A stretch of 58,985 nt of DNA, filler included, from Sanchytrium tribonematis (lineage: Eukaryota): assembly GCA_018985235.1 (NCBI GenBank). It is 5 parts of 5 records of this genome, joined end to end, with 100 filler letters (N's around TTAATTAATTAA, not from the genome) between each part and the next. Parts side by side here need not be neighbours in the genome. Positions count along the whole stretch, not along the records: positions 1 to 11,743 come from JADGIG010000249.1; 4 more parts are not named here. One strand, written 5' to 3'. Position numbers and translations under genes: made by a program. Positions within the stretch are counted from its first letter, which is position 1; every line of letters starts with the position of its first letter. Under the pieces are notes generated by a model. The model had not been told where the DNA came from. It searched no databases and saw nothing but the letters and a program-made list of their open reading frames with translations. This document shows positions 1,977-52,485 of the stretch, piece by piece.

Positions 1977-3703
1977 TGTGCAGCAAATTGCTCATGGATA
2001 AATAAACCGTATTACTTAATGCGAAAAAACAGATGATAGAGGTCTTTGTTAGAATAATATGATGTGATAGAGCAGAGATTACAAAGTGATCAATTATTAA
2101 ATGCGCTAATTTTGTTTTCAATTTAAAGTCATATTGAAATGAATTGATGATAGTTGCAACATGGAAGTCCATGTCACTGACAATAGCAAAATTGCATTGA
2201 AGTGGCGTATTAATAACCCAATTTATTCTTGTTATACGTATCCAAAAGAGAAACTAGACTTTTTTTAAGTTTTCCTGAGAAATCAAATTTGTTAGACAAT
2301 AAAAAAACTTTTGAAAAGCAGGAATGGGAGACTCTGAGATCATAATTTTGCTAGTTGGTAAAGCAATAAGAATTGGAGTACAGGAAGTTGCACCCTTTAC
2401 CTTTCATGATTTAGATACTCGTCGTTTCCCATACTTTCATGTTAATGGAAGACAATACATTGCAGATAGAACTACTAGTAGAACTGTGATACTGAGAAAT
2501 ATGATTTTTAATCTGGATAGTCGCTATCGAAATTGTAATGATTAGTTATTTTATCATTTTGATTTTATCAAAAAAGCCGAATTATGGAAATTAACATTTG
2601 AACAACAAAAAATTTGGACAAAGTATATTCTGTTAAAGGTATCCTCAAAGAATCAAAATGAAAACATCAGAACTATTTCTGTATTAGTTCAAGAATCTTC
2701 TTCATTGAACTTTTTGTAACGAACACCTCATCTATTCGGGGTTGAGTACATAAAGAAAATAAGATTTATTAACACAACTAAGCATAAATTATATCTTTAA
2801 TCTTCAATAAACTTCTTTTCTTATTATTTACAAGACTACATATTCCTACATTTCAACATTTTATGCAAGTAATATTTATCAGTTTGCACATGTTCATAAA
2901 TTAACAGACATTTTAGGAAAAGAACGATTAAACTCATAACAGCTTTGATATATTTGTAGATATGACTAGTAAGTTGTTTGAAATTTAAATAATTCTTAAT
3001 TTATGATGTACCAATTCTCTTACTCTCCATATATCTAAATCTTTTAAATAATGGAGTCTCATCACACATGAATATCTACAAATGTAGTAGCAAACAGCAC
3101 AATTCTTTAATCTCTTATATTTACGATAAGAAAGTAAAATATCCATTGAAAGCAAACCAAAATAGCAATCTTTCTTATTTGGGAATCCAATTTGACTTTG
3201 TTTGACATTGATTGAAAAGCGATATTTAAAATCAAAAAGTGAATGTAAAAAAATTAAACTAAGCGATCCCGAAACGAACGAGACTATCGTTATTATAATC
3301 ATATGGATCTTTATATTGATAGATTAAATGAATATGACTATAATCAAATTATTGAAATCAAGTGGGGTTTGGAATCAAATGGATAAAGAGAAATTACATA
3401 GCTCCAAATCTAACAACGATTATAGAGGTTATTTTAACAAAAATTTGCTGGGTAAAAATGTCGATCAACCACTCGAACTGGGTAGACAAGATGTAGATTG
3501 AAAATAGGCATTCTAAAAACTATTTGAGCGTCTAATTCAGAGATTGAGCAAATCGAAATATGTATTCTCTTAAATCTAACACAAACAGTGTGCAGGTAGG
3601 ACCACTAAATTACTCGCAATACTGTCTTTACAATAATAGTTAAAACCAAAGATAGATTCCACATTATATATGGCTACTTAATAAAACATAAAACTCTTGC
3701 TAT

Positions 3704-3931
3704 TTGGAGACCCTCATCACAATTAATGCAACGCCTATACAAAATACAAAAATCGAGGATGTAATACAATCATTAAATCGCAATTGGATCCAGATATTTG
3801 GACAACCAAAAGAAAGGATTGCAGACAATGGAAGTCGATTTCCGTCAAAAAAGTTTTATACGTACGTGGAAAGTTTAGATTGCATTGTGCAAAGGCAGCT
3901 GGGTAGAACGATACCTTATATCTCTAGGTAG
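3704..3931 (+). mobile_element. Degenerate retroviral-type (rve) integrase fragment
   Basis: WIQIFGQPKERIADNGSRF matches the integrase-core pattern W...FG.P..I.SDNG..F; flanked by stops. Confidence 0.7.
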
Positions 3932-4559
3932 CAAAATAGAGCTCTCCGACATCTGTCAGAAAATTTATAGACAGATTTCCTGTCTCAATTCTGGCTATTA
4001 ATTGGAAAGGATAACACTAAATTTCACCAAAGATAAGCCATATACGACAAAATTGAGAGACCGAGATAAAACAATAGCATGTGCCCACAAAAACAAGCGC
4101 GATAAGGTGTATATATCAAATTCATGGCGAACATCTAAGTTAGATATTATTTCTTACAAGAACAGATGAAATTTGTCAAAGAACTCGAGACAAACATTGT
4201 TGAGTCGAAAGCCGACAATGATAAGTATGTTCAATGCCATATGCATGATGTTTGATTAGCTTTAATCCAATAAGGGTGGTCGCGTCCTATTTTAAATTTA
4301 CTTGATCACCTGTTTAATTAATTGTAAATGGAAAAGGAAAATCAAACCAAAATCAAGTAACGAACGAAGATACTGCAAAAATGTAGCTTTTTAGTATGCT
4401 GTTTTGTTTAGAATTTGGAAATGGAGATGCGAATCAGCTCATTTTGAATTGGCAAAGAGAAGGGGCGTGACCCTGGTGATTGGGTCAATTTGAAATTGCC
4501 AATTGAGTGGCAAATGTAGAACATAAAAGAGAAGAAGATGATTAATAAAATTCTTTTTA

Positions 4560-7500
4560 CTGAAAATGAGTGATTTACAAGTCTCCAGTGGTAACGCAGA
4601 ACACACTATTTCTGATTTTGCGCAATGACGCGTGATCGACTATAATTTCGATCATAGAGTCGGACTTACCACTTGGCGTTTTGGGTTTTCGAATTTTGCT
4701 AGTGCATTGAATGTCCCAGAGCATATGTATTTTCGAGAAATGCTGAAAAATTTACAGCAGGAGTACATCAGCTAATACACTTGGGTGGTCCAATGAGATC
4801 TCTTTCTCATCACGTAATCTCAAATGATGCAAATGAGTTGCAACCAAATCAATCCCAACATCACAATCCCCTGTTGCAAACTAATTTGTGAACATTAACA
4901 ACTGATCAGAATGTGCTCTGAATGTTTACTAATCACTCTTAACATCCCCTGTACTATCTGGATAGCACGCTCAGCAATCCCATTCTCTTTCTTCACATCT
5001 GGATGGCTCTTTTTCATCTTAATATGCTCTGATTTTACAAATTCATCAAATTTCCCAAGAAATTCACATCCGCTTTGTCTGACACTAGTAAACTCGGAAA
5101 CCCCCACTTTGAGCAGTATTTAATCAATGCAAAAGCTGTTTAATACGCAGATTTGTTAATCATGGGGTGTAAATGGGTGCATCCACTGAACATGTCCGGA
5201 ATCACTGCCACATATTTAAAATCTCCTTCATCAATTTCCATCAGATCTATCCCAACAATCTCATTTACACCCTTTGGCATTCTGAATTTCATTACAATAC
5301 GGACAGCATTTCACAAAATTAATGATCATTTCATCCTTGTTTTTAAAGTGATAATTGGATAGTAATAGGCGCATGGGCCCTATTGCAGCATGGTACTTGT
5401 GTGTGGCTCTTAATAATCCTGCAACATCCTCCAAATTGGCTTCATTTCCCTGGTGTAAATCATCTTGAGGTAATTCGTCATGAGAAATCATCCCCTTGCA
5501 AAATGCACACATGAAATCATCTTCCAAGTCACTGTCCATCAATCCATAACAGTCTTGATGAGCGAACCTGTCACATTCTCTACATTGGACCATCACATCT
5601 CTCTCGACATTGACTTTGCAAATGCATGCAGTGACATCTGGTTGGAGGGTTTCAGCATTCTCCATTGGTACTGGCTGCTTTCTAGATAATTCCGAATCAT
5701 CATCAATCAATTTTGCTTCCAATTTATCATTTTCCAACTTTGCTCCCTTGCTCCTTGTTTGGTATATTGGTAATCGTGATAACAGATCTGCTTGGCCATT
5801 TGCTTTTCCTTTAATCGGCACATACTGAATATTTTATGGCTGGACAATATCTATCCAGGATTTGACCTTGTTGGTCAATTTGCTACCATATCCCCTGACA
5901 AACCAACCACCACTCTCTGAATCACAATGAATTCTAATCAGATTGGATCCCATGTACTTGCCATACTTTAATATCCCCTTTTCAATGGCATACATCTCCT
6001 TTTCATGAATTGAGTACTTCTTCTCACTCTTATCCAGAGACTTGGAAAATATTGCAATCAATTTCCCATCTTGATAGAGTGTACATCCAATCGCAAATCC
6101 ACTCGCGTCCGTATACATGTCGTACGGCATTTCATTCTTGAAATATGCCAACTTGGTGCTTTCTAATAAATCCATGGCCCATTTTAATGCCTTTTCTGCT
6201 TCATCGTCCCAGTAAAATAGCTTTCTGGCATTGTAGATTCTAATGGGGGCAATCACATCCTCGAAATTCATCACAAAGTCGCGCACCCAACTGAACATCC
6301 CGAGGATTCTAGCATATTCTCTCCTCGTTTCAGGGGATTTATTTCCTTTCAATTGAATCAAATAGCCAGGTTTACACGTAAATCCAGTAGAATCAACCTT
6401 GAAACCGCAGGAAATGACTTATTTCTGAGCCAAACTGGATTTTCTCCCAATTGATGTTTACATTCTTCTTGGTTGCAATTTCGATGAAATGATTCACATT
6501 CTGGTAATGCTCCTCTAATGTTTTATCCTTTAAAACAGTGTCATCAACAAAGACAGCCTTATTCTTGATATCCTTGAATGCTTCAGTACTGGAATATTGG
6601 AAGATTCCCATGGACTGTTTAAGTCCCTGTCCAAGACGCAGTATATTATACTGGCCATTGGGAGTACACACACTAATCAATTCACCTGTTTCCTTATCAA
6701 CACCATTATTAAAGAAAAAATCCTTCTGATGAACTTTAGAAACCACTCAAATCCCTCAAATAGCTGCAACTAGTCTAAAAGCAGTGGGATGGGATACCCC
6801 ATGTGTTTAGTGGCCATATTGACTCTGCGGTAGTCAGATACGCATCTTCAATCCCCATTTCTTTTGGCAACTAAAAACATGGCAGAACAAATCTCACTGA
6901 TTCCATGATACATGATATTTCTATTTAGTAAATCATCTACTTTGGCATTCAATACGCCCACATTGTTGCTTTTGTAGGGTAATTGGCGTAGTTTAAAAAT
7001 ATCTGCTCCATCAACCAACTCAATTCTGGCAAGTGGACATCAGCCGGTCGTATGTCATCGTGAGAATACTTGTCAATGAGCTGGTAAAAGTCATTCAATT
7101 TGATCTTGCTGGGAATTTTCGGTGATGCTTTCTTCAAATTCCAAACTAGACTGCTTTTCATCTTTTCCTTCAGGATGTCTCTACCAATGATAGGATGGGA
7201 TGGATAATGACTATCTAACACTAAAAAGGGGTGCTGGGGAAAAGAATTCCCATGAATATTTAATTCAACCAATGCACTCCCCAAACAATTAATTGGTTCT
7301 CCACCACCAATAATTTGGCAATTACTGTCTTTTAGTTCCAATTTCAATAAATCAACATGGATTGACTCACAACACTTGCATCAGCTCCAGTATCTAAAAT
7401 TGACTTGATTGGCTGCTTATTCATTTAAACAACATGATGTTGATCAACTGGGGCTTGATTGGACATTTTAATGAAATTAATCACTGATTTACCCTCTCTT

Positions 7501-7890
7501 TCTTTTTTGCAAATATTCCAATCATAAACATAATTGGATCCACAGGCAAAAAAAGGTCGGCAAATCTTGCTTGGGCTTCAAATACCTGGGATTTCCCTGC
7601 TCAAATCTCTCACAACTAGCCACAACATTCTTCAATTCTTTAAAATCATTGTAGATGTTTCCAACAATGAATTTCTTGATTGATGGCTTCAAACCATCAA
7701 TGGTCTGCTCTAAAGCTTCATTTGTGCCTAATTATAAAAGACGCCCATTGGCCTCCATTCTATTCAAATACACATCAGATGCTTAATCAATTGGACCAAA
7801 CAAGATGATGCAACTTAGGCACATTGGATTATTTAAAAATGGGTTGCCTCTGGATATTTGTGGTGTCCTATTGACCTCGCAACTTTGGGA
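4560..7890 (-). mobile_element. Decayed Ty3/Gypsy LTR retrotransposon internal region (gag-PR-RT-RH-PHD-INT)
   Basis: Order on the minus strand: gag-like remnant with degenerate zinc knuckle (about 7510-7890); protease ILDTGAD (about 7400); RT DYRRVN...GLKQS...FVDD (6393-6950); RNase H DASGFAIG...EKEMYAI...HCD (5834-6361); KANGQADLLSR; PHD finger; HHCC zinc finger; integrase ENGIAERAIQ (4895-5107). Multiple stops and frameshifts; LTRs not found. Confidence 0.93.
5498..5626 (-). other. PHD finger (C4HC3) embedded in Gypsy pol
   Basis: CICKVNVERDVMVQCRECDRFAHQDCYGL...FMCAFC: all eight zinc ligands at PHD spacing. Confidence 0.88.
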
Positions 7891-8900
7891 TGCAGTTAAT
7901 TCAATTTTCCAAAAATCAACACAAAATTTTACAAGGCAAAATCCGTAAAATCATAAAATTACTACTTGGATCTACAATCTCAATGCCTAATTTATTATTA
8001 AAGAAGGCTTGCATCTATCCTGACACTTTAAAAAGAAATCAATATTTTATTCAAAAACAACGAGTTGGAGATGGGATGCATCATTTGAGAATATCTATTT
8101 CATTAAATAATCGTTTAAATTTCATTTTCATTTTTCTCTTATCAATCAAATTAATTTTTGGAAATTTAAACCAAATTCAAGAAATTTTCATTGTGACAAA
8201 TGTGATTCATTTCACCCATATTTACAGTCTGAATTACAATGTGCTGTCAATAATGGCTTATTTGATGGACTTAATACCTTAAGTGATACCGCAAATCGAA
8301 ATCATTCCCCAAACAATCAAGACTTAGAAACATATCCAAATCACATCTCAAATTTCAATAGATATACACTCACACCTGATACGTCATTAACGGATGATTA
8401 TATTGGTATTGGAATCATCGTAACCAAGCCAAATTCCAACGATTCATTTTCAGAATTCAATTACAAATTACATTGCACAAATGGCATTCAACCATGCAGC
8501 ACAGAAATTGAATGCATTGCTATTAATATGTGCATACAATATGCACTGGCTAATTCATTTACAAACATTAGAATATTTAATAATAATCAAGGGAGTGTAA
8601 AGATTAATCAATAATTTATTGTACGGAAATGACCCTGCTAAGAATCCATTTTCATACCATTTTAGAGAATATACAAAATTTATGTATGATCCGCCCCAAA
8701 TTGAGTGGATAAAAGGTCACAATGGCCCCATTTTAAACGATAGAGCTGATTTTTTAGCAAAATCTGCTCAAAATTCACAAATATTACCATTTAAATCAAA
8801 GACTTTTATTAAACCACGATTAAATAATATTATTTATTTATTTATTTGATAACGAAATTAATATTAATGATTTGAATGAGCAACAAACTAATTTACTAAA
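7890..8900 (+). mobile_element. Decayed non-LTR retrotransposon fragment with cellular-type RNase H
   Basis: IGIGII...TEIECIAI...IEWIKGHNGPILNDRADFLAK (RNase HI C-terminal motif WVKGH.G...N..AD.LAK); very AT-rich and interrupted by stops. Confidence 0.7.
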
Positions 8901-9059
8901 TACAAGAATCAATACATTTAAGGAAAATTATAATTTGCATTATTAGTGCATTGGTGTTTAGCATTGTCGTTGGCAGTTGTAGACCCTATTAATAAAATTT
9001 CTTTCTTTCTTTCAGAAGTAAGATTATCTGAAATTTATCTGTCTGCTTGTTTTAATGAT

Positions 9060-10490
9060 CTTCAAACTACTTGCCTCCTTGGCACGGGTGCCAATGTCTC
9101 TATTTTACGTGCAAAAATGCTTGGAAACATGAAGGATGTGCAGATGCAAAATTGTGATTTGAGGATTTCTTGTGGAGGCGTATTGAAGCCAATATTAGGA
9201 AGAGCTTTGGTAAGAGTTAAGCTAAATGATTTTAAGCCATTTTGGCATTGGTTTTACGTGCTAGAGGGAAACTACCCACTCCATCTAATTATTGAAACTG
9301 ACATTCTCAATAACCATTTCACATCTAAATTGGTGATTGGTGATTCAGGAAAAGGATTAAGTGTTCAATAATGTGGCATATAAAAATGAGATTAAATCAA
9401 TTTTGAGACCCAAATTAGCACACTTGGATGAAAAACATCTTCAATGGTACTGGTAATATTCGAGAAATATCATGTGGATCCCCTGAAACCTATTAAAGTT
9501 TTTCCAATTGATTTGGAATTGAAAGATAATGTGGATTTCAGCTGAGTCAGAACCATACCCAGATTCATATCCAAAGATGAGATTGCTGATAAATATATGG
9601 CTCTTGGATTCATTAAAAAGGGTGAAAGTCAATAAAGAATGGAAAGATAAGACTAGTGATCGATTATCGTAAAGTGAATCATAATACCAAGCTAAATAGT
9701 CTACCCATTGCACGAATTGATGGTTACAAATATGTATCCTGTTCTAATTACGTCCCCACTTTGAAGAGCCAATTAGAGATGTAATATCTATGAAATCAAA
9801 GTTTATATGGACACCAGCACCAGAAACAGCTTCGAGAAATGCACTAGATTGGGCTCGCAGCATCAGATTTCCAACATCTAGAATGGTGCAAATTGTGACT
9901 TGTTTGTTGATACAAGTCAAGCCAGTGTCGGAGGTGCCATATTCGAGAATAGCATCCTGGTGGGACTGTTTTCTCGCAAATTAAATCGCACCATGCAAAC
10001 TTGGGATTGCTTTGAAAAAGAATTATACGGTGCTTACGTGGGATTGAACAAGTTTGGTAGGTATTTGGGTGGCAACAGAGTCACTATTAGATCAGACAAT
10101 GAGGCAGCCATCTACTTGTTGAATGGTATGGAAATAAGAAATCTCCGAAAATCCTAAGTTGGATTAAATCCATCCAACTTTGGCTGGTCTGTGTAAACAA
10201 ATCAATAGTGGATTTGAAGATGGTGACATCCGTCGCTTTGACTTCTTTTTAGACCATCAATTCATGGAAGTCATTTATTTGAGTATCTACCAATCAGAAG
10301 TGTTACACGCATTACAGCAACTAAAAGAAATTTCAACTTTTAAAGAGCAGTTTTGCAAAGCAAACACTTTAGTGATAATCAATTCATGCTCGTGTTGCAT
10401 AAAAAACAAGATTTGAAGAAACAAGAGATTGCAAGACTGAAATTGTTGGTGAAAGAAATTGGGAAATTTGTGTATTTGACATAAAATACC
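9060..10490 (+). mobile_element. Second, heavily decayed Ty3/Gypsy pol fragment (PR, RNase H, integrase Zn finger remnant)
   Basis: LLGTGANVS (protease DTGA, mutated); FVDTSQASVGGAIF...FSRKLN...EKELYG...IRSDN (Gypsy RNase H); much of RT missing. Confidence 0.8.
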
Positions 10491-10849: not shown

Positions 10850-11743
10850 TAAATGGCTAATTACTGAGTGGCTCGAGAAATAGAGTCAATTCTCAAACCC
10901 ACATTCATTTAATAATTACCATCGTAATTTTAGACATCTTAATGGCATCCAGGTATGGGGTGTTATCTACCAGCTGCAGAAGCATCAAATGCTAGTGAAT
11001 ATTTTATGACTAATTTCTATTCTGTAGGGGGTCCAAATACTCTGTCTATCGGTGATTACAACAAAGATTTGATTAATCTAAATAATTTTCCCAAGTAACT
11101 TCTTTTTCATCAAAATACATATGAACAAAATTTAGAGATAGCAGGATGTAATAATAGTGATTTGTCATTCATATCGTACAATGGGAGCCGCCACAGTAAC
11201 ATGGACATTTTGATTTTCCCCATGTCAACTCCTTATTATCTAGAAATCTCTGCTTTAAATCACTCTTGTTCAGATCATTTGCCAATTCTAGTACATGCTG
11301 ATGAAGATATCGATTCTGAAGATATCATTTTAGCAAAGCAAGAGAAAATTAGATTAAATAAATTTAAAGAATTTACTTTTGATGAATTTAATCATAAAAT
11401 TTATCCTATTAGAAATCATTACAAACTGCTTACCGCATCAAAACTTCGATTATTTCAACACACTTTCTATCAACATTTATCTGAGAAGAATTTAGATTCT
11501 GCATTAGATTTTCTTGGTGAAATACTGATTGAATCTGCAAATCATTCCGCTGGATTCAGTAGAGGGCGCAAATAATTCATTTCTGATCATATGCATGAAC
11601 TAGGACAGGCATTTCAACAATTATCTCAAAACGGCTTTATTTCCGGTAATTCTCAAAATTTCATAGCTAATTACAATCAGTCTCAGAAATGAGATCTCCG
11701 AGAGTGATCTACTAAAATCACTATTTTTAGTATTTGCGCATCC
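10850..11743 (+). mobile_element. Decayed LINE-type apurinic endonuclease (EEP) fragment
   Basis: IGDYN, SFISYNGSRHSNMDILI and CSDHLPI motifs; truncated by contig end. Confidence 0.7.
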
Positions 11744-20476: not shown

Positions 20477-20570
20477 CTCCTAGATGATTCTAGCCAATTA
20501 CGATTCGTCGCGAATCCCTCTAATTTCTCTAAATAAATATTTTGAAATCCACCCCTTTCGTATATCAAAA

Positions 20571-21512
20571 ATGAAATTGAATTCAGAAGTTGCTAGTGAC
20601 AGCAGTAAAGCTGTTGCAAACTATATTGGAACCTTAAACCAAGAAAATAATGACCCTAGTATCCAAAACAATTTATTTGAGCCATTTGAGTTGCTCGAAA
20701 TCCCTCACAATCAAATGCCGTTATATCCGGCTCCATTACCACCAAATTTTAATGCTGCTGCCTATGTAGCAGAGACCACCACTCGAATTAACACTGCAAA
20801 ACTAGCCGCGAAAGCTAAAGGTATTGCGAAACCAGTGTCGTCAAAGCCTACATTAAAACAGCAGCCCCAAATACTTAGAGAGGCCATCAAAATGACACCC
20901 GGTAGAGCTCCAGATGATTTGAGAAAAGCTGTTTTATCGGGTTTTTTAGCATATAAAGATGATTTGAAACGATTAGGTGGTAGAACCAGTGAGAAACAGA
21001 TTGTGAAAAGAAAAATCATTGACAACTTTCTAAATAACCGAGTTTTTAGTGGAGTAGACATGAGTGTAGTTGATGAGAAATTTATTGCGGCTATTTATGA
21101 TCTTGAACATACAAATTTCGTAAGATACATGGAAAGAGCAATGAAAAGTGGTTCAGGAGCCACTAAAAAAACTGCTCTGTTTGATTTAGGGTTTGAATTA
21201 TGGAAAGGAGACCCAAAAGCGATTGAACCAGTTCGTATAAAATTAGGCAGACCAGTTGAAGAAATTACACGTGATATGGTGACTCCCAAATTTGAGCCTA
21301 TAAAACCAATACAAGATGATGACTTAAAGCAGCTGCACAACAAAGCCACAAAGAAGAAGTCCGATGATGCCAATAGTCTTAGTTTAAAAAACGAAACAAT
21401 GATGACGATTCGTGATACCAACAAGAGATTTAATTCATATATGGATACAAGTGAAGAATATATGAAATTAAAGATTCAATTGATGTTAAAACAATTAAAT
21501 GGAGAACAATAA
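20571..21512 (+). CDS. Probable Harbinger ORF2 (Myb/SANT-like DNA-binding partner)
   Basis: Convergent with a Harbinger transposase; central KSGSG...LFDLGFELW..DP...P pattern and coiled-coil C-terminus resemble PIF/Harbinger partner proteins. Start could be 20484 or 20571. Confidence 0.6.
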   Translation: MKLNSEVASDSSKAVANYIGTLNQENNDPSIQNNLFEPFELLEIPHNQMPLYPAPLPPNFNAAAYVAETTTRINTAKLAAKAKGIAKPVSSKPTLKQQPQILREAIKMTPGRAPDDLRKAVLSGFLAYKDDLKRLGGRTSEKQIVKRKIIDNFLNNRVFSGVDMSVVDEKFIAAIYDLEHTNFVRYMERAMKSGSGATKKTALFDLGFELWKGDPKAIEPVRIKLGRPVEEITRDMVTPKFEPIKPIQDDDLKQLHNKATKKKSDDANSLSLKNETMMTIRDTNKRFNSYMDTSEEYMKLKIQLMLKQLNGEQ

Positions 21513-21576: not shown

Positions 21577-22795
21577 TTATCCATCAAACAAAGACATGAT
21601 ATACTGGCAATAAATTTCTCTGTTTCCTTGAGAAAATGCACGTCTATTATCATCATTATTCTCCATTTCACCAAATATTGCACTTAATTGAGACACTTCC
21701 CTACACATTTCATAAAACTTCATCTGATTGGTATCCATTTCAATCAAACCAATACTTGTATCACCTAAATTAATTGCAATCACCAATATCAATACAATAA
21801 TTGTGTATTATCATCAATGCTTTGGTTAATTTGACATGCATGGACTTGGAGACTGCAACTGCAAAACTGAGAAATTTCCATCTTCTCTTTATCATACCAA
21901 ATGTCATTTCTGTTTTTACTCGTGCCCTGCTCAGATGTAAATTGAATAAATTTCGCACATCACTACATACTCGAATTTCATTGATGTCAAAAGGCACAAA
22001 CATGTTTGGTTGTATAGGGAACCCACCATCTGCAACAACAACATACTCTAAACCAATTTGATCTAACCATGGCTTTAAATTAGATGTGTTAAAACCATAG
22101 GAGTCCTGTCTACACCCAGGAATACCCAAATCAGCACCAATTACTCGACATTTAGCATCTACCATACAGATACAATTAAGACTATAGAAACCTTTATGGT
22201 TATAATAGCTAGTTTCTGTACCTTTTTCAGTTATGGCAATTGGAAAATGGACACCATCGATTGCGCCGCACACGTTTGGAAATATTGATTTTGAATAAGT
22301 TTTAAAATCAGAACAATTTTGTTTAATTTGTTCTATCGAGGACGGTAGAGAAATGTAGCTATCAAATACCTGTAAAATAGCATCAGTAAATTCATAAATT
22401 ATTCGTCTAGCTGTTGATTCAGATAATCCAAATGCAAATCCAGCATTAAATATGTCTGGATCTCTACCGCAATAATACAAAAACATGCCAAATCGAATAG
22501 AATCATTGATTCTAGGTCTTCCAGTAGTGTTAGGTGCAGCACTATCCAAATGTGGCTTAATTATGTCCAAAAAAGAAATAAATGTTTCTGGCGAAAGTCG
22601 ATAAATCTTAATAAAACGTGCTCTGGATATAGCGTTGTTTTCAATTTGTTCAATCGGGTCATGTAGTCTTACATAATCAAAATATTCTCTATGTTGCAAA
22701 TTAGTGATAGATTGATTGTAAAACAATTGAACGTTTGTTAAATATTGCGCAATTAGTGGAATTCCAGTTATTATTTCTTGATCTTCCTCTAACAT
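21577..22795 (-). CDS. PIF/Harbinger (HARBI1-like, DDE_Tnp_4) transposase, 2 exons: 22795-21784, 21764-21577
   Basis: GAIDGVHFPI, YNHKGFYSLN, ADGGF, RVKTEMTFGMIKRRW, IIHNYC. Removing the 19-nt intron gives a 399-aa protein. Confidence 0.92.
21765..21783 (-). other. 19-nt spliceosomal intron in transposase
   Basis: gtgattgcaattaatttag; joins the two ORFs in frame. Confidence 0.75.
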
Positions 22796-22992
22796 GTAGA
22801 ATTAGTTTTGAAATTGTAAAGCATATTTTATTAACAACTAGAGCCACATGCCTCTAAAAATGCTTCTGATCTGATCAGAAATGACTTTTAAATTTGGGCC
22901 TAAGCAATCATGTAAAAAGTTGGATTTCATGTGGCAGCATAAGAGCGCATCTGCACAGTTTTTATTGAAGTTGATCCTCAAACTCAAACCAC

Positions 22993-27648: not shown

Positions 27649-27781
27649 TTTTGGGGGAATTTTCTGGCCGATTTTGGAAAGAGCCGGGGTTTGATTTCAG
27701 GTTTCATAGACAACAATTTATTCTGTGATTGGCAGTTAGGGCTGATAAATCTACTAAAGAAAAGGGCTGTCACGAGTTTTA

Positions 27782-28954
27782 ATGATCTTCTTGATGCTCG
27801 TATTTGCCATGAACAAAAGATCATTAGCTAAATTGTTTGGTAGACGAACAAGATCACCTGTTACTGCCACAGCGGTACAACCAATTCTTGTGAATACGCA
27901 GGATGAAATGGATATCAAATTACTAGATGAGTATTACAATGAAATGGTTAAAATTATAGAAAAGATACAATCTAAGAGTGATGAAGAATTGAATGATGCG
28001 CAACAGCGAAGTTCATTCTATATTGCAATTCAAATAAAAGAGGCACTACTAAATAAAGGTAACAAAATCATAGATACCGAACAAAATAGTGAAATTAACA
28101 ACAAGAAACAAGAAATTGTAAAAGAAATTAATGAAAAAATTCAAGCTATGACTTTTAACAAACAATTATTCTGGTTACAAATGACTGATTCCAAAAGGTA
28201 TGATTTTGCAGATATGATTTTGACAACTTATTATCTCAAAATGACACGACTTAAAGTGGAATTTTTAACAGGATTAGAAGCATCAAAATTAAATCAAGAA
28301 AATATTCAATTGTATGTTACCCAACTTCATGAATTAGAAACAGATCAAAGAAGTGAGATAGAAGCAATTATACTAAGACGGAAGACCAAACCAATGGAAG
28401 ATTATGAACAAGAACAGAACAATGAACGAATCAAGGGAGATTCTTCAATCAAACTCAAAAAACTGGAGTTGAATGAAAGGTTAATGTTTCAATATGATAG
28501 TTATATGGAACCAGAAAATCATAAATACCAACTTACAAAGCAATTAATCGATCTAATAACTGAAAATGAGAAATATTCAACGCTTAAAGAGGAATCCAAA
28601 ATGAAACGTGTTGATTTACATATCGTTAAAAATGTAGAAACGAAAAAGACGGTTTATGACATGCATGAAATATTAAAGTTTGATATTACTAAATTGAAAA
28701 ACAAAATTAGATTCCAAATGAATCGTTTGCGACTAAACAAAATTCGAAATTTCAAGAGTTTAATGGATTTAAAAAATTCAAGATCGCCATCGACAAATTT
28801 GGAACCACTAGAAGAGCTCGAAGCATCATTGGCACTAACCGGCGAATATTACAGTGTGAAATTACAATCATTACCACCAATTCAAGAAGAGGAGATTAAG
28901 CCGCAAAGTTCCATCTCAGCCACAAAGCATATTGACAGGGAAATTAATCTCTGA
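27782..28954 (+). CDS. Putative secreted helical protein, family member 1
   Basis: MIFLMLVFA N-terminus; charged helical body; C-terminal LEPLEE and LPPIQEEE; AATAAA just after the stop. Confidence 0.8.
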   Translation: MIFLMLVFAMNKRSLAKLFGRRTRSPVTATAVQPILVNTQDEMDIKLLDEYYNEMVKIIEKIQSKSDEELNDAQQRSSFYIAIQIKEALLNKGNKIIDTEQNSEINNKKQEIVKEINEKIQAMTFNKQLFWLQMTDSKRYDFADMILTTYYLKMTRLKVEFLTGLEASKLNQENIQLYVTQLHELETDQRSEIEAIILRRKTKPMEDYEQEQNNERIKGDSSIKLKKLELNERLMFQYDSYMEPENHKYQLTKQLIDLITENEKYSTLKEESKMKRVDLHIVKNVETKKTVYDMHEILKFDITKLKNKIRFQMNRLRLNKIRNFKSLMDLKNSRSPSTNLEPLEELEASLALTGEYYSVKLQSLPPIQEEEIKPQSSISATKHIDREINL

Positions 28955-29120
28955 AAGAAATAAATATTTCAATGATTCCATTTCCAATGACAACTCGATT
29001 GACTCGCAATTGAATTCCTTGGGGGTAAATTTTAGGAGTTGCAAGGAATCGGCAAGCTTGTTTGTGATTGGTTAATAGGCCTGTTGGACTACTTAACACC
29101 AACACATGCCCCACCAACTA

Positions 29121-30491
29121 ATGATCTACTTGATACTCGTATTTGCAATGAGTCCCGGATCATCATTGTTACAAGCATTGATGAGAAATAGAAATGCTAG
29201 AAGAATTGTCCCTGAACCATCCTCAGCATCAGCACAAATCATAAGAACTAGAGCTGATGTAAATCGAATTTATGATGAAATCATGTCATCTTATAAGCTC
29301 GAAGTAGCCAATTTATTGCAACAATCCTATTCAAGTGGGTTGGATGCTGGAATTGAACAAATTAAATTTAAAATTGATTCGCTCAATAGTCTTTTACCAA
29401 CTGCAATTAGCAATGTCGCATCAAGAGATTTCAGCAGTATTCCAAGCATATTTAAAAATCACATCAATATCCAACGAGTTCAAACTCGACGAGACATTCA
29501 AGCGCTGACAATTGAGTTGAATCCAGATCAACAATTACAGTTTTTAGAAGCAGTGGATCCTCAAGGATACAAAGTAGCGGAACAGATTCAATCAGTATTT
29601 GACAATCATATGCAAAGACTTAAAGGCAATTTGTTGGATGAATTAAACAAAAATGATAGAAATGAAAATGTTATTCAACAAATTACAACTAAAATCAACG
29701 AATTATTTGCTGAAAAATCAACTATTTTTGGTGAGATTATCAATGGACAGGGAAACGAAGTACAGAGAGACTATCAGACTGAAATTAGTGCTTTAGAAAT
29801 TGATTATCGAGTATTCAGTAGAATTACAGATTCAATTTTGCGTCGAACAAATCCAATTCATAAAATTGAATATCTCAAAATCACTGAGCCATTTAATGTA
29901 AAGTATCAAATTGCATTCAATGATTTAGAGAGTTTAAAAGAAGTTTATAAAATCAGAAAATTAAAACAAGTGGATATTCCATTGATTCATGCGCTAAATG
30001 ATGCCACTGATTTACAAGATCCAGCCTTAAAATTGAAATTAAATGAGTTGAAAAATACAGCCAATCTATTAAATCAAGAATATATCCAACGTATTCTCAG
30101 AATACCAACCTTGACGTATGAAGAAATGAAAAGTGATATCAATGAGAATCGTAAAGAACGAGATAAAAGTAAAGCTCAAAATGAATTGGATTTAAAGACA
30201 TTTCGACAATTTGGTTCAAATGCAGAAATTACAAAAAAAACTGAATTTGATTATTATCGTAAGCCAACTCCATTTGCATCCAATACAAGACAATCAATGG
30301 ATGCAATGCGTAGAGAGATACATACAATCACCATTCCTAAAGTTGAAATAGATACTGGGTTGACAGATACTGGGTTTACAGATACAAGCATTAAATTGCC
30401 AACTATTCCAGAATCATCAGAATTAGAATCAGGTTCTACAATCAGCCATGAAGTAGGAGAAGCAAAACTTGCAGATCACCCTATAAAATAG
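29121..30491 (+). CDS. Putative secreted helical protein, family member 2
   Basis: MIYLILVFA N-terminus (ATG 29121); C-terminal LPTIPESSE. Confidence 0.8.
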   Translation: MIYLILVFAMSPGSSLLQALMRNRNARRIVPEPSSASAQIIRTRADVNRIYDEIMSSYKLEVANLLQQSYSSGLDAGIEQIKFKIDSLNSLLPTAISNVASRDFSSIPSIFKNHINIQRVQTRRDIQALTIELNPDQQLQFLEAVDPQGYKVAEQIQSVFDNHMQRLKGNLLDELNKNDRNENVIQQITTKINELFAEKSTIFGEIINGQGNEVQRDYQTEISALEIDYRVFSRITDSILRRTNPIHKIEYLKITEPFNVKYQIAFNDLESLKEVYKIRKLKQVDIPLIHALNDATDLQDPALKLKLNELKNTANLLNQEYIQRILRIPTLTYEEMKSDINENRKERDKSKAQNELDLKTFRQFGSNAEITKKTEFDYYRKPTPFASNTRQSMDAMRREIHTITIPKVEIDTGLTDTGFTDTSIKLPTIPESSELESGSTISHEVGEAKLADHPIK

Positions 30492-30891
30492 ACAATAAAT
30501 AGATGGTATAACATTTGATGCACAATTGCACTAAAGTATCAAAGAATATGAATCCAGAATCATCAGATTATATCATGATAGATCAAGAATTTTAGATTAC
30601 GTTATTAGAGGTCAACAATATAAATACTAACAATTATAATTTGAAATGATTATTATTCTACTGTCCATACTGCGTTGAAAACCATTTCAAAATAGGTCAA
30701 TTCGAACGTCGATTTGAATTTTTGTTACATCAGGAATTAGGTATCGATTTTGTCTGATAATTAATCATCAGAAACAATCATTGGATCAATTAAATGATGT
30801 GAATATCGAGCTCATTTCAAACAGTGTCATTGATTGGATATCAGGATTATCAAGACAATAAAAAGAACCATGAATGATTGAATTATCGAAA

Positions 30892-31539
30892 ATGATTTAT
30901 TGGATGATTTTATTTGCAATACCAGTTTTATCAACAGAGCAGAACAGATTGATTAACATAGTGAATGTGTTTACTGATTACCAAATTGCAAAAGTGCAAT
31001 ATGAATATTTACAATCATTAAGTGGAGGTAATGAGGTCTTGAAAAATAAGGAAGTCCTTTTGGCTAAAGTCAATAAGCTCGTAAATTACAGAAATGCAGC
31101 TATTGAACAAATTAATCATGGTAAATTGAAGGTATTTCAATTACACCCTAATTTGCAAAACTTTGATCCGAATTTATCAAAATGGTCAATTTTACAATTA
31201 CACAAGGAAATGAACCAATTTTGGAATGGATTGAGTGACGAAAAGAGAGAAATATATAAAAAATCAGGATTTCAGAGTCATGGATGGACTGGATGGAATA
31301 ATGGTAACACTAAAGGAGGAGAAACTGGCACTGTTCAAATTAAATTGCAAGAGGCACTTAGTGAGGCCAAATCAAATGTTGCAGCAAATATACCATCATC
31401 TAAAGTTCTTTCCCCTATTGGTACTGCAGACCAGTATGTGGCAGAAGGTCCTAATATTAATTTGGATTCAATCGCGGGAGTGACTTCTGGAATTGAAGGT
31501 ACGGACCCAAAAGGCGAAGTAAGAAAACCTGGTTTTTAA
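30892..31539 (+). CDS. Putative secreted protein, family member 3
   Basis: MIYWMILFA N-terminus (ATG 30892); AATAAA overlaps the stop. Confidence 0.75.
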   Translation: MIYWMILFAIPVLSTEQNRLINIVNVFTDYQIAKVQYEYLQSLSGGNEVLKNKEVLLAKVNKLVNYRNAAIEQINHGKLKVFQLHPNLQNFDPNLSKWSILQLHKEMNQFWNGLSDEKREIYKKSGFQSHGWTGWNNGNTKGGETGTVQIKLQEALSEAKSNVAANIPSSKVLSPIGTADQYVAEGPNINLDSIAGVTSGIEGTDPKGEVRKPGF

Positions 31540-31726
31540 TAAACTATTATTTTGATTAAATGCAGTTAATCCAAATTGTTCAAGGTATTTCAGATTCCGC
31601 AGGGGTAAATGCCTGATAATTATCAAATTTCAGTTACAATCATTGGCCACAGACTATTTTGCAGCTTTATTATTGGGTGACGGGATATTCAAATGATTCA
31701 AAAAGCATGTACCATCCAAATGTATT

Positions 31727-32656
31727 ATGATCTTCTTGATTTTATTTGCAATGGCAACATCAACTCAGCAACAACTCAAATCAAAAATTAACTATGTTTA
31801 CAGCATGAAAATGCTAGAACTGAAATTGAAATTTGTAAAACCAAATGGTAAAGACTCAATTTGGGAAAGTTTTAGAAATTATTGGGGTGGGGATGAAATG
31901 ACGAGATTTAAAACAAATATTGCAGCACTTGAAGCAGAAAAGAATGCTGCATTGGAAAAATTAAAAAATGGTGACCTTGGTAAACTTGACCAATATAATT
32001 TGATCCATACAGATGCCGACTTGAAGACTCAAAAAATAGAGGAATTAAGAGCGGCATTGTCAAAATTGTCTGATGACAGATTATCTGTTTTCGATCAACT
32101 ATTTTTTGATCAATATACAAAAAGGTTTCATAGAGTAAACGATTTGGAAAAAATTCAAGCATTCAATGCTATCATGAAAGATACGGTAACTACTGATCTT
32201 GTTATACAATATTTTAAAGTTGACAATGACAGAAAGTCTGACTTGAATATGGCTAGATCTGATCCAGATTTTCTTCCGTATTCTGATAAACTGACACAGA
32301 CAAGGATCAAATCAATGTCTCACGTGGAAATGATTTATAAGACTTTCGAATCAGAACTATTGCATCCATATGTGCGTCATATGCTTAAAAATTTAGTGGA
32401 TTGGAATAATCGTCAAGATGGAGAACCAAATCTGCAAGATTTTAAGAGTGAAATTCAAAAAGAAATCAAAAAATTGCCAAAGGTCATTAAATGGCGAAAT
32501 CTACAAAACTCAAGAATAAAATTTCAGCCATCACTGGAAATAATACCTGAAGATGCATCTCTATCAGAAGGAACAAACAATAAAGAGCAAATTACGGAGC
32601 CTGATGGGGCAAACCATAATAGCCAAGAACCATCGAAACCAGAATTAATTGTTTGA
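31727..32656 (+). CDS. Putative secreted protein, family member 4
   Basis: MIFLILFA N-terminus; C-terminal LEIIPED. Confidence 0.8.
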   Translation: MIFLILFAMATSTQQQLKSKINYVYSMKMLELKLKFVKPNGKDSIWESFRNYWGGDEMTRFKTNIAALEAEKNAALEKLKNGDLGKLDQYNLIHTDADLKTQKIEELRAALSKLSDDRLSVFDQLFFDQYTKRFHRVNDLEKIQAFNAIMKDTVTTDLVIQYFKVDNDRKSDLNMARSDPDFLPYSDKLTQTRIKSMSHVEMIYKTFESELLHPYVRHMLKNLVDWNNRQDGEPNLQDFKSEIQKEIKKLPKVIKWRNLQNSRIKFQPSLEIIPEDASLSEGTNNKEQITEPDGANHNSQEPSKPELIV

Positions 32657-32722
32657 GATGAATAAAATTTAAAACATTCACAATGCTATTTCATATCTCT
32701 ATTTCAATGAAATCCAAATGCC

Positions 32723-33388
32723 ATGTCACTCAAATCTTCAAATTATCTCAGAATTGGATTTTGGAATATTAATGGCAAATTACTCAAAAATCTACCCATT
32801 TTTAAATCAAACTTCAAATCTCATCAATTTGATATATTTTATTTACTGGATACAAAATGCAAACAACACTTAAATGGATATGATGCATGTTTTCCAACGA
32901 CAACACATTCTTGTGGCATGTCTATTTTGTATAATTCTAAAACACGGCAAATGATTGAATATATTCAGGGATATCAATATTGGACAGTCATAAAAATGCC
33001 TCAATTGGCTATATTAAGTATTTATAATGCACCTAGTATAGAGAATCATAGTATTTATGAGATTATTAGGGATTTTACAATGTCACATGAAAATATTTCA
33101 AAATATATTTTAGGTGATTTTAATATGAATTTATCAAGAATGAATAAATGGGATAAATTATTGTTGAATCAATTTATTCAATTTGGATATTGTAAATGTG
33201 ACTATACTCCACCCAATTTGACTACATTTGAAAGAATGTGCAACAAGAAATTACAATCTTCGCAAATTGATCATGTCTTTGCATGTCATAGGCATCAATC
33301 TATTCAATTACAAGTACAACCACGATGCCATCCAATATCCAACATATCTGATCATAAATTGATTGAATTTTCAGTCCCAATTTATTAA
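32723..33388 (+). CDS. Stand-alone EEP/APE-like endonuclease domain protein
   Basis: FWNING, SIYNAP, ILGDFN, SQIDHVF, ISDHKLI; stop and AATAAA directly after the domain; no RT. Confidence 0.82.
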   Translation: MSLKSSNYLRIGFWNINGKLLKNLPIFKSNFKSHQFDIFYLLDTKCKQHLNGYDACFPTTTHSCGMSILYNSKTRQMIEYIQGYQYWTVIKMPQLAILSIYNAPSIENHSIYEIIRDFTMSHENISKYILGDFNMNLSRMNKWDKLLLNQFIQFGYCKCDYTPPNLTTFERMCNKKLQSSQIDHVFACHRHQSIQLQVQPRCHPISNISDHKLIEFSVPIY

Positions 33389-34359: not shown

Positions 34360-34546
34360 AAAACAGTGTTTTGAAAAATAAAAAACACCGTGATTTCATC
34401 AGACACGTGAAGCCACTTCATATAATTTCAGATACTTTGATTGGTCACAGAGTATCACAAATCAATTACCAATATAATACAGGAAATGCGATTGGATGCT
34501 AGGGGCGTACATCAAACATAAAAGACGCACGCGACAACAAATTATC

Positions 34547-35194
34547 ATGATTTACTTGACACTAATAATTGCATTACCTTTTTGGGGACTGATTCGACCA
34601 GCAGATCCTTTGGCGAGTTATTCTGATACTCAGTTGATCCAAAAATATTATGATATTAAAAGCAGACAAATACAAGTTGAAATATTAAAATTGATTCAGC
34701 AAGATCCTAATGAGATACTCGCAAAAAATAACAAAATATTGCAATACGGCAAACTTTTTTCAAAAAATGAGATTCAAAGAACGAAGGATTTAAATGACTT
34801 GAAAATCACTGATGAAATGAAAGAAGTTATCAAAAAAAAAATTTTAAACATCCTAGAAAACGATGAGAGAAACAGAGTCATTTTAGAAAAAGGAAAATTT
34901 GGCGCTTTAGGAAAAAAGTTTGATTCATATATATTTAGTTTGAAGAATTCCCTACATTTACAGACCCTAAGGCAGCAACCATTTAAAGAGCATCTGCAAG
35001 ATGCAATTCGAGCTGCCGAATCTGACACTCAAGTAACTAGAAGCGACAGTACCAAACAAAGTAATCAAGCTGAAGTACTTGCAGAACAGCCTGTACTTGC
35101 AGAACAGCCTGGGAGTTTTACAACTAAGCCAACCGGATTGGAATACAAACTCCCTGCTGAAACTTTTCCAAGAGGGCGAGCAATTCCCGTTTAA
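34547..35194 (+). CDS. Putative secreted protein, family member 5
   Basis: MIYLTLIIA N-terminus (ATG 34547); AATAAA overlaps the stop. Confidence 0.75.
   Translation: MIYLTLIIALPFWGLIRPADPLASYSDTQLIQKYYDIKSRQIQVEILKLIQQDPNEILAKNNKILQYGKLFSKNEIQRTKDLNDLKITDEMKEVIKKKILNILENDERNRVILEKGKFGALGKKFDSYIFSLKNSLHLQTLRQQPFKEHLQDAIRAAESDTQVTRSDSTKQSNQAEVLAEQPVLAEQPGSFTTKPTGLEYKLPAETFPRGRAIPV
35075..35110 (+). repeat. Perfect 18-bp tandem duplication (VLAEQP x2)
   Basis: gtacttgcagaacagcct twice. Confidence 0.95.
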
Positions 35195-51580: not shown

Positions 51581-52485
51581 GTGATTAGTTTATTGAAAAA
51601 GGTAGGTATTGTACCTTAATGCAGTAATAAAAAGCAGAGAGGAAGTATAGTTCCAGAATACTGTCAAGGTAGATGAGGTTGAGCAGAAAATTAGTTACTT
51701 AGAGACAAACAGAAATCAGAGTGATAAGAAAATTAGTGAGTTGGAGTCAAATTATAATTAGAAAATTAGTGACTTAGAGACAAACAGAAAGCAGAGTGAT
51801 AAGAAAATTAGTGAGTTGGAGTCAAACTATAATTAGAAAATTAGTGACTTAGAGACAAACAGAAAGCAGAGTGATAAGAAAATAACTGAGTTGGAGTCAA
51901 ACTATAATCAGAAAATTAGTGAGATAGAGTCAAGCATTAGTGAGCTAGAGTCTAGCAAAAAGGAGAGTGACAAATTAGCGAGTTAAAGACAAAATGAATA
52001 CAATCATAAGTATTCTAAATTGCCGTCAAGTTATAACATTCTTCAATCAAATTTTTATGGAACAGCTAAGAAATCAATTGGGAATTACAGAAAAACAGTC
52101 CAAGAGTTTTGGATTATATGGTTTAAATGATATTAATGGTTTTGTTGATAATACATATACAAAAGATTGGAAGAAACAAATGACAATTGGCGCTCACCTT
52201 ATAAGTCAGCTTCTAGAACATTTAAAGAAGATTTAGATAAAGCATACAGAGCAGTGGCCACAAAATTTAGGTTTTTCTGAAACGAGTTCTGCTCTGGTGA
52301 AGCTTTCGACTGATTCGAAAAAGCCAATGAATTTGTTCATGAATCTGATAAAATATACGATCCCACTGATACAAGAGAAAAAGTCCTTATGAAATATAAT
52401 CGAAGTTATAGGAATTAAGGGAATAACGAAAATTCTCATTTTAATGTGCAGGCAATCAAATTTGTACAAGAAATATTTTCAATAA
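51581..52485 (+). pseudogene. Decayed coiled-coil repeat gene
   Basis: Frame interrupted by several TAG codons and a frameshift near 51980; retains a 19-nt intron-like element at 51606-51624. Confidence 0.55.
51685..51930 (+). repeat. 75-bp tandem repeat, about 3.3 copies
   Basis: Units start at 51685, 51760, 51835 and 51910; each encodes (Q/*)KISDLETNRKQSDKKISELESNYN. Confidence 0.95.

What the first reader, a model, noticed from the sequence alone, without database searches (positions are those of the whole stretch)
5261..5821. Gypsy retrotransposon with a PHD finger inserted between RNase H and integrase
Seen: a complete C4HC3 PHD finger (5498-5626), flanked by acidic linkers, lies in frame between the RNase H end (ADLLSR) and the integrase HHCC finger (HKYH...CPYC). 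Known: chromoviruses use a chromodomain at the integrase C-terminus to target chromatin, and PHD fingers read histone H3 tails; a PHD at this position is not the standard Gypsy layout. The usual cage Trp two residues before the His is Phe here. Inference: an alternative chromatin-guided integration module at the integrase N-terminus, potentially useful in a genome with little intergenic space. This copy is dead.
Basis: partly seen in the sequence, partly recalled or inferred. Interest (0 to 1): 0.72.

Follow-up and report, generated by a model that had tools for sequence, protein, structure and literature searches.

The report
PHD finger ahead of Gypsy integrase
A broken copy of a jumping gene, likely from a tiny alga-parasitising fungus, carries a histone-reader-type zinc finger just in front of its insertion enzyme, a layout shared by its whole small family and apparently also drawn for one green-alga element, which probably helps the enzyme dock on chromatin but has not been shown to steer insertion.

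Summary
A complete C4HC3 PHD finger (5498-5626, minus strand) lies in frame between RNase H and the integrase HHCC finger of a dead Ty3/Gypsy fragment (8 frame changes, 8 stops, no LTR pair). It is not a one-off: four uninterrupted relatives (RT-RH-PHD-integrase, 31-46% identical to each other) keep it, as conserved (48%) as the integrase core (44%), while the linkers are not (22-25%). They form an isolated clade (SH-aLRT 100); 0 of 107 other pol proteins carry a PHD. The finger is of the PHF20/Set3/MLL5/ASH1L class and keeps three pocket positions, including the PHF20-type Glu (7 of 7); the cage Trp varies (W/Y/F/L). A T-R-x-K motif resembling the H3 tail lies about 44 residues upstream (7 of 9, against 0 of 81). 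Best reading: an N-terminal chromatin-docking module of integrase; binding and targeting are untested. The layout is probably not new: Chlamydomonas Gypsy-7a has a PHD listed between RH and INT (legend only). This scan noted Gypsy PHDs before on other DNA, at the integrase C-terminus. New variant of a known kind.

The parts
4773..7782 (-). Internal fragment of a dead Ty3/Gypsy retrotransposon (Gag 3' part, protease, RT, RNase H, PHD, integrase); truncated at both ends, no LTR pair in the window
   Evidence: tblastn of P0004/P0003 covers it in 9 pieces at 77-90% identity; no long direct repeat
7431..7782 (-). Gag remnant with the end of a CCHC-like knuckle; broken
   Evidence: P0004 residues 95-211
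7170..7430 (-). Aspartyl protease (DTG), broken by a stop and a frameshift; limits approximate
   Evidence: matches P0004 212-299, Pfam gag-asp_proteas E 1.1e-9 in P0004
6408..6860 (-). Reverse transcriptase core (FVDD), broken; limits approximate
   Evidence: Pfam RVT_1 E 1.9e-10 on 6396-6746
5774..6130 (-). RNase H ending in ADLLSR; one stop at 5834-5836
   Evidence: Pfam RT_RNaseH E 4.6e-17
5747..5758 (-). T-R-S-K motif (H3-tail-like R-x-K, or start of a basic nuclear-import patch) just behind the likely RH/integrase protease site; this copy lacks 4 codons of that site
   Evidence: 12-base indel against other contigs at 5761-5765
5498..5626 (-). C4HC3 PHD finger, PHF20/Set3/MLL5/ASH1L class; pocket residues Asp 5636-5638, Thr 5630-5632, Glu 5603-5605, Met 5591-5593, Phe 5564-5566
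5294..5401 (-). Integrase HHCC zinc finger
   Evidence: Pfam Integrase_H2C2 E 0.018 here, E 1.5e-4 in P0006
4925..5292 (-). Integrase catalytic core, two frameshifts and a stop, followed by a deletion of about 126 codons at 4925
   Evidence: P0003 93-214 then 341; 29-base indel at 5291
4773..4925 (-). End of the integrase C-terminal region, no chromodomain in relatives
   Evidence: P0003 341-391; Pfam scans of P0002, P0003, P0007

Best explanation
This is a dead copy from a small, deep Ty3/Gypsy clade whose pol carries a conserved PHD finger between RNase H and the integrase zinc finger; the finger likely stays on the integrase as an N-terminal extension and likely docks it on histone H3 tails, which would bias where new copies insert. 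Shown: the finger, its position, its presence across the clade, its conservation at enzyme level, its class and pocket residues. Inferred: protease cleavage upstream of the finger; binding of the H3 tail at K4, with the PHF20-type Glu pointing to K4me2 or lower states; weaker or shifted binding in the subfamily of this copy (Trp to Phe or Leu). Untested: any effect on insertion sites.
For: Uninterrupted RT-RH-PHD-H2C2-core ORFs P0002, P0005, P0006, P0009, 31-46% identical to each other. Mean pairwise identity PHD 47.6% (14 pairs), integrase core 44.2% (14), RT 38.8% (6), linkers 22.3% (9) and 25.4% (14). RT-RH tree of 104 of 112 rows: the 5 clade rows form one group, SH-aLRT 100, stem 0.97; 0 of 107 other pols have a PHD. 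Best PDB matches by sequence and by fold are PHF20, Set3, ASH1L, MLL5 PHDs (model pLDDT 82). Pocket in 7 intact TE fingers: Asp 7/7, hydrophobic or Thr 7/7, Glu 7/7, Met 6/7, aromatic 6/7, matching ASH1L D2573/I2575/D2584/M2588/W2597 and PHF20 E662 by spacing (PMC9399681 passages). A [VI]-[NK]-x-hydrophobic motif recurs before the protease, after it and right after RNase H. The model of P0007 shows the PHD as a folded unit between low-confidence linkers, ahead of an integrase like PFV and Ty3. Precedent: Gypsy-7a_cRei has a PHD and a 2.6-fold intergenic insertion bias, cause undecided by its authors.
Against: No binding or insertion-site data. The cage Trp, whose loss to Ala abolishes ASH1L binding and which 50 of 60 cellular PHD hits keep, is W in only 2 of 7 intact TE fingers (those two are 79% identical), Y in 3, F here and L in the otherwise intact P0002. 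The protease site is inferred from a motif only; P0008 has a similar motif between PHD and H2C2 and P0004 lacks a clear one after the protease. This copy lacks LTRs and sits in a patchwork of element fragments, so its place says nothing on targeting. Only 7 intact fingers are known, and no PHD-less sister lineage was found for contrast.
Confidence: 0.55

Rival explanations
1. The finger read H3K4 methylation in the ancestor but in the subfamily of this copy it has become a weak or vestigial reader, kept as a folded spacer or for another surface.
For: Position I is Phe here and Leu in P0002, and the Asp after the third Cys is lost in both (R, S) while the other 5 keep it. A Trp-to-Phe change lowers histone affinity in fly Pygo (PMC3851687 abstract).
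Against: All 8 Zn ligands, Asp, Thr, Glu and Met are kept in both at 64% identity; fly Pygo still binds H3 with a shifted preference. A variant contig over the finger has 2 silent and 2 non-ligand changes (too few for a test).
Confidence: 0.17
2. The finger binds chromatin but not to choose sites: it retains the integration complex on chromosomes or in the nucleus, or acts on chromatin after insertion.
For: Authors reviewing TE PHDs propose chromatin remodelling or restructuring; the Gypsy-7a bias may come from selection.
Against: An integrase fusion is present only during insertion and in few molecules (established knowledge), which fits tethering better than later regulation.
Confidence: 0.13
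3. The finger's main ligand is the element's own T-R-x-K segment, an H3-tail mimic near the integrase N-terminus; it masks the pocket or times integrase maturation.
For: T-R-x-K within 50 aa of ADxLSR in 7 of 9 clade members, 0 of 81 other pols (16 of them have T-R); shuffled linkers give 0.10 on average, at most 3 in 5000; spacing to the first Cys 44-45 aa in 5 of the 6 T-R-x-K members where it could be measured, 51 in P0009; the Lys column is at least 90% invariant in a 22%-identity linker.
Against: Members are kin, so the count is not independent. The motif opens a basic patch that can be a nuclear-import signal; T-R-A-Q-like words follow the RH end in unrelated Gypsy pols. P0006 lacks the Arg. 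PHD fingers usually need a free N-terminus (recalled), and the cut site is unknown. The segment is low-confidence in the P0007 model.
Confidence: 0.12
4. One-off capture of a host PHD exon, or an assembly chimera, in this dead copy.
For: None found.
Against: Same position in P0002, P0005-P0009 and partial P0004, P0010, P0012 from different contigs and two source collections.
Confidence: 0.01

Closest known systems
Gypsy-7a_cRei of Chlamydomonas reinhardtii (PMC9940879; section 13 and legend read, figure not seen)
   Same: Gypsy Gag-Pol with a PHD finger; the legend lists GAG, PROT, RT, RH, PHD, INT, which suggests the same position; chromatin-related role proposed; intergenic bias 2.6-fold.
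   Different: Green alga, 15.4 kb, two ORFs, active.
REM1 of Chlamydomonas (Perez-Alegre 2005; paper not held, seen only as cited)
   Same: Cited as an LTR retrotransposon with a PHD finger.
   Different: Recalled, not checked: PHD and chromodomain lie toward the integrase C-terminus.
Chromoviruses (Gao et al. 2008, as summarised in PMC6673714)
   Same: Ty3/Gypsy order of domains; a histone-reader class domain fused to integrase.
   Different: Reader is a chromodomain at the C-terminus and points to heterochromatin; here a PHD of an H3K4-reader class at the N-terminal side, no chromodomain, and the clade does not nest in a supported chromodomain group.
PHD fingers of PHF20, yeast Set3, MLL5, ASH1L
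   Same: Best sequence and fold matches (5tab E 8.2e-10 by sequence; rank 1 by fold); pocket positions II, III, IV kept, IV is Glu as in PHF20.
   Different: Position I is F here (W, Y or L in relatives). The PHD tree (52 columns) does not resolve a donor.
Other TE-borne PHDs: CR1 ORF1, Ginger1, Chlamys Penelope-like elements, Rehavkus; Gypsy integrases ending in a PHD
   Same: PHD as a recurrent accessory domain of mobile elements; an Atlas cluster of 80 members has PHD, rve and H2C2 (score 0.77, lead only).
   Different: Different element classes or, by earlier unchecked scan notes, a C-terminal position.

Membership tests
Ty3/Gypsy LTR retrotransposon | pol order PR-RT-RH-IN | tested here: met
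Ty3/Gypsy LTR retrotransposon | Gag upstream, HHCC plus DDE integrase | tested here: met
   P0006 has zf-CCHC, protease, RT, RH, H2C2, rve in one ORF; fold matches Ty3 and PFV integrase
Ty3/Gypsy LTR retrotransposon | LTR pair, PBS, PPT, target-site duplication | tested here: inconclusive
   none in this truncated copy; DNA of intact relatives not obtainable
PHD finger | C4HC3 ligands and PHD fold | tested here: met
H3K4me reader of the PHF20/Set3/MLL5/ASH1L class | pocket positions II (Met), III (small hydrophobic or Thr), IV (acidic) | tested here: met
   M, T, E in this copy; 6/7, 7/7, 7/7 in the clade
H3K4me reader of the PHF20/Set3/MLL5/ASH1L class | position I tryptophan | tested here: not met
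   Phe in this copy; W in 2 of 7 intact fingers
H3K4me reader of the PHF20/Set3/MLL5/ASH1L class | measured binding to methylated H3K4 | not testable with these tools
   needs peptide binding assays
Chromovirus | chromodomain at the integrase C-terminus | tested here: not met
   no Chromo hit in P0002, P0003 (E up to 0.1), P0006 (0.001), P0007 (1)
Chromovirus | RT clade membership | tested here: inconclusive
   clade isolated on a long stem, attachment unsupported (32); no curated reference elements in the tree
Gypsy-7a_cRei lineage | PHD between RH and INT | tested here: inconclusive
   met here; for Gypsy-7a known only from legend order
Gypsy-7a_cRei lineage | RT/IN relatedness | not testable with these tools
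   sequence not among session results; Repbase and GyDB not available

The most novel reading that the evidence does not exclude
Probability: 0.12. Interest if true: 0.85.

Novelty: new variant of a known kind. Interest (0 to 1): 0.5.

Why it matters
Chromodomains are the best-known reader modules on Gypsy integrases, and the role of TE-borne PHD fingers has been proposed for twenty years without a test in the papers seen here. This clade gives a compact test set: a finger kept across 31-46% identical elements, with natural W/Y/F/L variants at the cage and an invariant PHF20-type Glu, in a likely host with an 11 Mb gene-dense genome. If it reads H3K4 methylation from the integrase N-terminus, it is a second way to aim LTR integration, at an active rather than silent mark, and a module for steering integrases.

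Tried and rejected
No own genome is held, so copy number, LTRs and insertion sites could not be mapped. Metagenome scan with P0002: 38 pattern matches, none confirmed. A region search with P0002 400-720 found only P0002 and P0004. Sequencing runs: 3 listed, no RNA holder listed; X1 may be the window's own source and is not independent; summed contig depth over the finger (about 150-420, against about 48 on neighbouring unique contigs) is not a copy number. X2 and X3 hold only scattered 150-base pieces. Complex prediction of the P0007 finger with its TRVK segment: no verdict (0.17, mark 0.34, alignment not used, controls not folded). ESM Atlas: all hits under 0.9; no RH+PHD+H2C2 cluster among rows shown. 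PHD-only tree too short to name a donor or show one origin. P0056 (divergent finger plus H2C2-like end, pocket not kept) and P0023 (partial) were left out of pocket counts; P0060 duplicates P0005; P0004, P0010, P0012 have incomplete fingers; 8 of 112 rows were dropped from the RT tree for short span. Papers not held: REM1, PHF20 structure. PMC8226300, PMC5408684, PMC3286476 gave nothing relevant. Scan look-ups by sequence, by place and by second word set were empty.

Full report
Observation. The minus-strand frame 5264-5833 reads from the RNase H end ADLLSR through a 49-residue linker, a C4HC3 finger at 5498-5626, a short linker, and HKYH...CPYC. Pfam calls the finger PHD_5 (E 4.5e-8), PHD_2 and PHD, each above cut-off; RNase H lies upstream in the same frame behind a single stop.

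The copy. Against its closest relatives (P0004 and P0003, 86-92% identical) the element spans 4773-7782 in 9 pieces with 8 frame changes and 8 stops, lacks the first 94 Gag codons and about 126 codons of the integrase C-terminal part. No LTR pair is present. It lies in a patchwork of element remnants at the start of the window (a second Gypsy at about 9010-10400 on +, an integrase scrap at 3692-3931, an RNase H scrap at 8601-8849), followed by densely packed cellular genes. A contig of run X1 joins 4774 to 9011 through 516 other letters, so the fragment interrupts the second family's sequence. Without LTRs its place cannot be read as an integration target.

Family. The first protein search gave 3 hits among 391 candidates; the HMMER scan of 1.84 billion representatives gave 57 hits, of which 10 show element context (P0003-P0010, P0012, P0023), one doubtful (P0056) and the rest are cellular PHD proteins by the 23 scanned and the sequences read. 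P0002, P0005, P0006 and P0009 run from RT through RH, PHD and H2C2 into the integrase core without a stop (P0005 ends inside the core) and are 31-46% identical to each other. P0002, P0003 and P0009 are labelled Sanchytrium tribonematis by their source (P0004 shares P0003's contig name); P0005-P0008, P0010, P0012 are unnamed ENA records. That species is an alga-parasitising fungus with an 11.2 Mb genome at 34.6% G+C (PMC8371127, passages); the window runs at 28-40%. The host is therefore likely a sanchytrid; this is inferred, not shown.

Conservation and descent. Mean pairwise identity is 47.6% in the finger, 44.5% in H2C2, 44.2% in the core, 38.8% in RT, 55.6% in RH, but 22.3% and 25.4% in the two linkers, so the finger is under constraint like the enzymes. 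A profile search returned 110 pols among 7990 scored candidates; apart from 3 clade members all are 21-30% identical to P0002, and 0 of those 107 contain a PHD by pattern or by profile. In an RT-RH tree (104 of 112 rows, quick IQ-TREE) the five clade rows form one group, SH-aLRT 100, on a 0.97 stem, with unsupported attachment and outside the supported groups that hold the 15 chromodomain-labelled rows. No chromodomain was found in P0002, P0003, P0006 or P0007.

The finger. Best solved matches are PHF20, Set3, MLL5 and ASH1L by sequence (33 hits) and PHF20, ASH1L, Dido, Set3 by fold. In that class the K4 pocket is Trp (I), Met (II), a small hydrophobic residue (III) and an acid (IV) (PMC12365614, passages); Glu at IV favours K4me2 in PHF20, Asp favours K4me3, and Met or Trp to Ala abolishes ASH1L binding (PMC9399681, passages). 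By spacing, the 7 intact element fingers have Glu 7/7, Met 6/7, T/I/L 7/7 and the upstream Asp 7/7; position I is W in 2, Y in 3, F here and L in P0002, against W in 50 of 60 cellular hits. So the clade keeps a reader pocket but tolerates change at its most critical residue; fly Pygo shows that Trp to Phe lowers and shifts, not necessarily ends, H3 binding (PMC3851687, abstract).

Which protein carries it. A [VI]-[NK]-x-hydrophobic word recurs before the protease (4 of 4), after it (3 of 4) and just after RNase H (7 of the 9 shown; this copy has lost 4 codons there, P0010 differs). Taking it as the protease site (inference), the finger is an N-terminal extension of integrase. P0008 has a similar word between PHD and H2C2, in a stretch that is helical in the model. 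The P0007 model (pLDDT 73 overall) shows a folded finger between low-confidence linkers, then an integrase matching PFV and Ty3 intasomes.

An extra feature. T-R-x-K follows the inferred cut in 7 of 9 members and 0 of 81 other pols, far above shuffles, 44-45 residues before the finger in most. It resembles H3 A-R-T-K (recalled motif). It may be a self-ligand or simply the start of a nuclear-import signal; members are kin, and P0006 lacks it.

Mechanism. Most likely (0.55): after polyprotein processing the integrase carries the finger on a flexible tether, the finger binds H3 tails, probably K4me2 or lower, and raises insertion near such nucleosomes. Presence, position, conservation and class are shown; cleavage, binding and targeting are inferred.

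What is known. PHD fingers are recurrent in mobile elements (PMC6673714, PMC2836005, PMC8557442; passages). Gypsy-7a_cRei of Chlamydomonas has one in Gag-Pol, listed between RH and INT, and inserts between genes 2.6 times more often than chance, cause undecided (PMC9940879, section 13 and legend; preprint passages; one supplement file, cut, no PHD hit; figure not seen). REM1, Repbase, GyDB and the thesis cited there were not available and may hold more. Searches (listings) showed no description of a PHD-bearing Gypsy in fungi or of this clade. Earlier scan notes report Gypsy and Copia PHDs at the integrase C-terminus on other DNA (unchecked).

Verdict. Real, clade-wide and conserved; layout probably precedented in one alga; lineage, likely fungal host, pocket pattern and TRxK motif appear undescribed. 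New variant of a known kind, interest 0.5.

Noticed in passing
window 9011-10400 (+) and 4662-4774 (+): Second decayed Gypsy family (protease, RT scraps, RNase H E 9e-11) sharing the odd GYG(N/S)K..PK RNase H end with the PHD clade, best matching P0009 (43%); no PHD seen in this remnant. Could be a PHD-less or truncated sister.
   Followed up: partly
window 3692-3931 (+) and 3200-4700: Integrase-core scrap and high-depth repeat sequence of a third element.
   Followed up: no
window 8111-8849 (+): Broken cellular-type RNase H (Pfam RNase_H E 9e-4 on 8601-8846), probably a non-LTR retrotransposon remnant.
   Followed up: no
window 11099-11575 (+) and 32711-33388 (-): Frames that look like endonuclease/phosphatase domains of non-LTR elements (SDHLPI, SDHKLI ends; recalled motif).
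   Followed up: no
window 21770-22801 (-): 343-aa frame that looks like a Harbinger/PIF DDE transposase, with a 342-aa partner frame at 20484-21512 (+).
   Followed up: no
window 27758-32656 (+) and 34478-35194 (+): Run of 5-6 frames with signal-peptide-like starts and no obvious family, two sharing a 33-base start (27780, 29119): a possible secreted-protein cluster of a parasite.
   Followed up: no
window about 6550 (-); P0002, P0004, P0006: RT catalytic motif is FVDD rather than YxDD in part of the clade (YVDD in P0005, YIDD in P0009).
   Followed up: no
window 51685-51936: Tandem repeat of about 75 bases, over three copies.
   Followed up: no
P0110, P0116, P0118: Gypsy pols with both a SET domain (PF00856) and a chromodomain in the precomputed Pfam list.
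   Followed up: no
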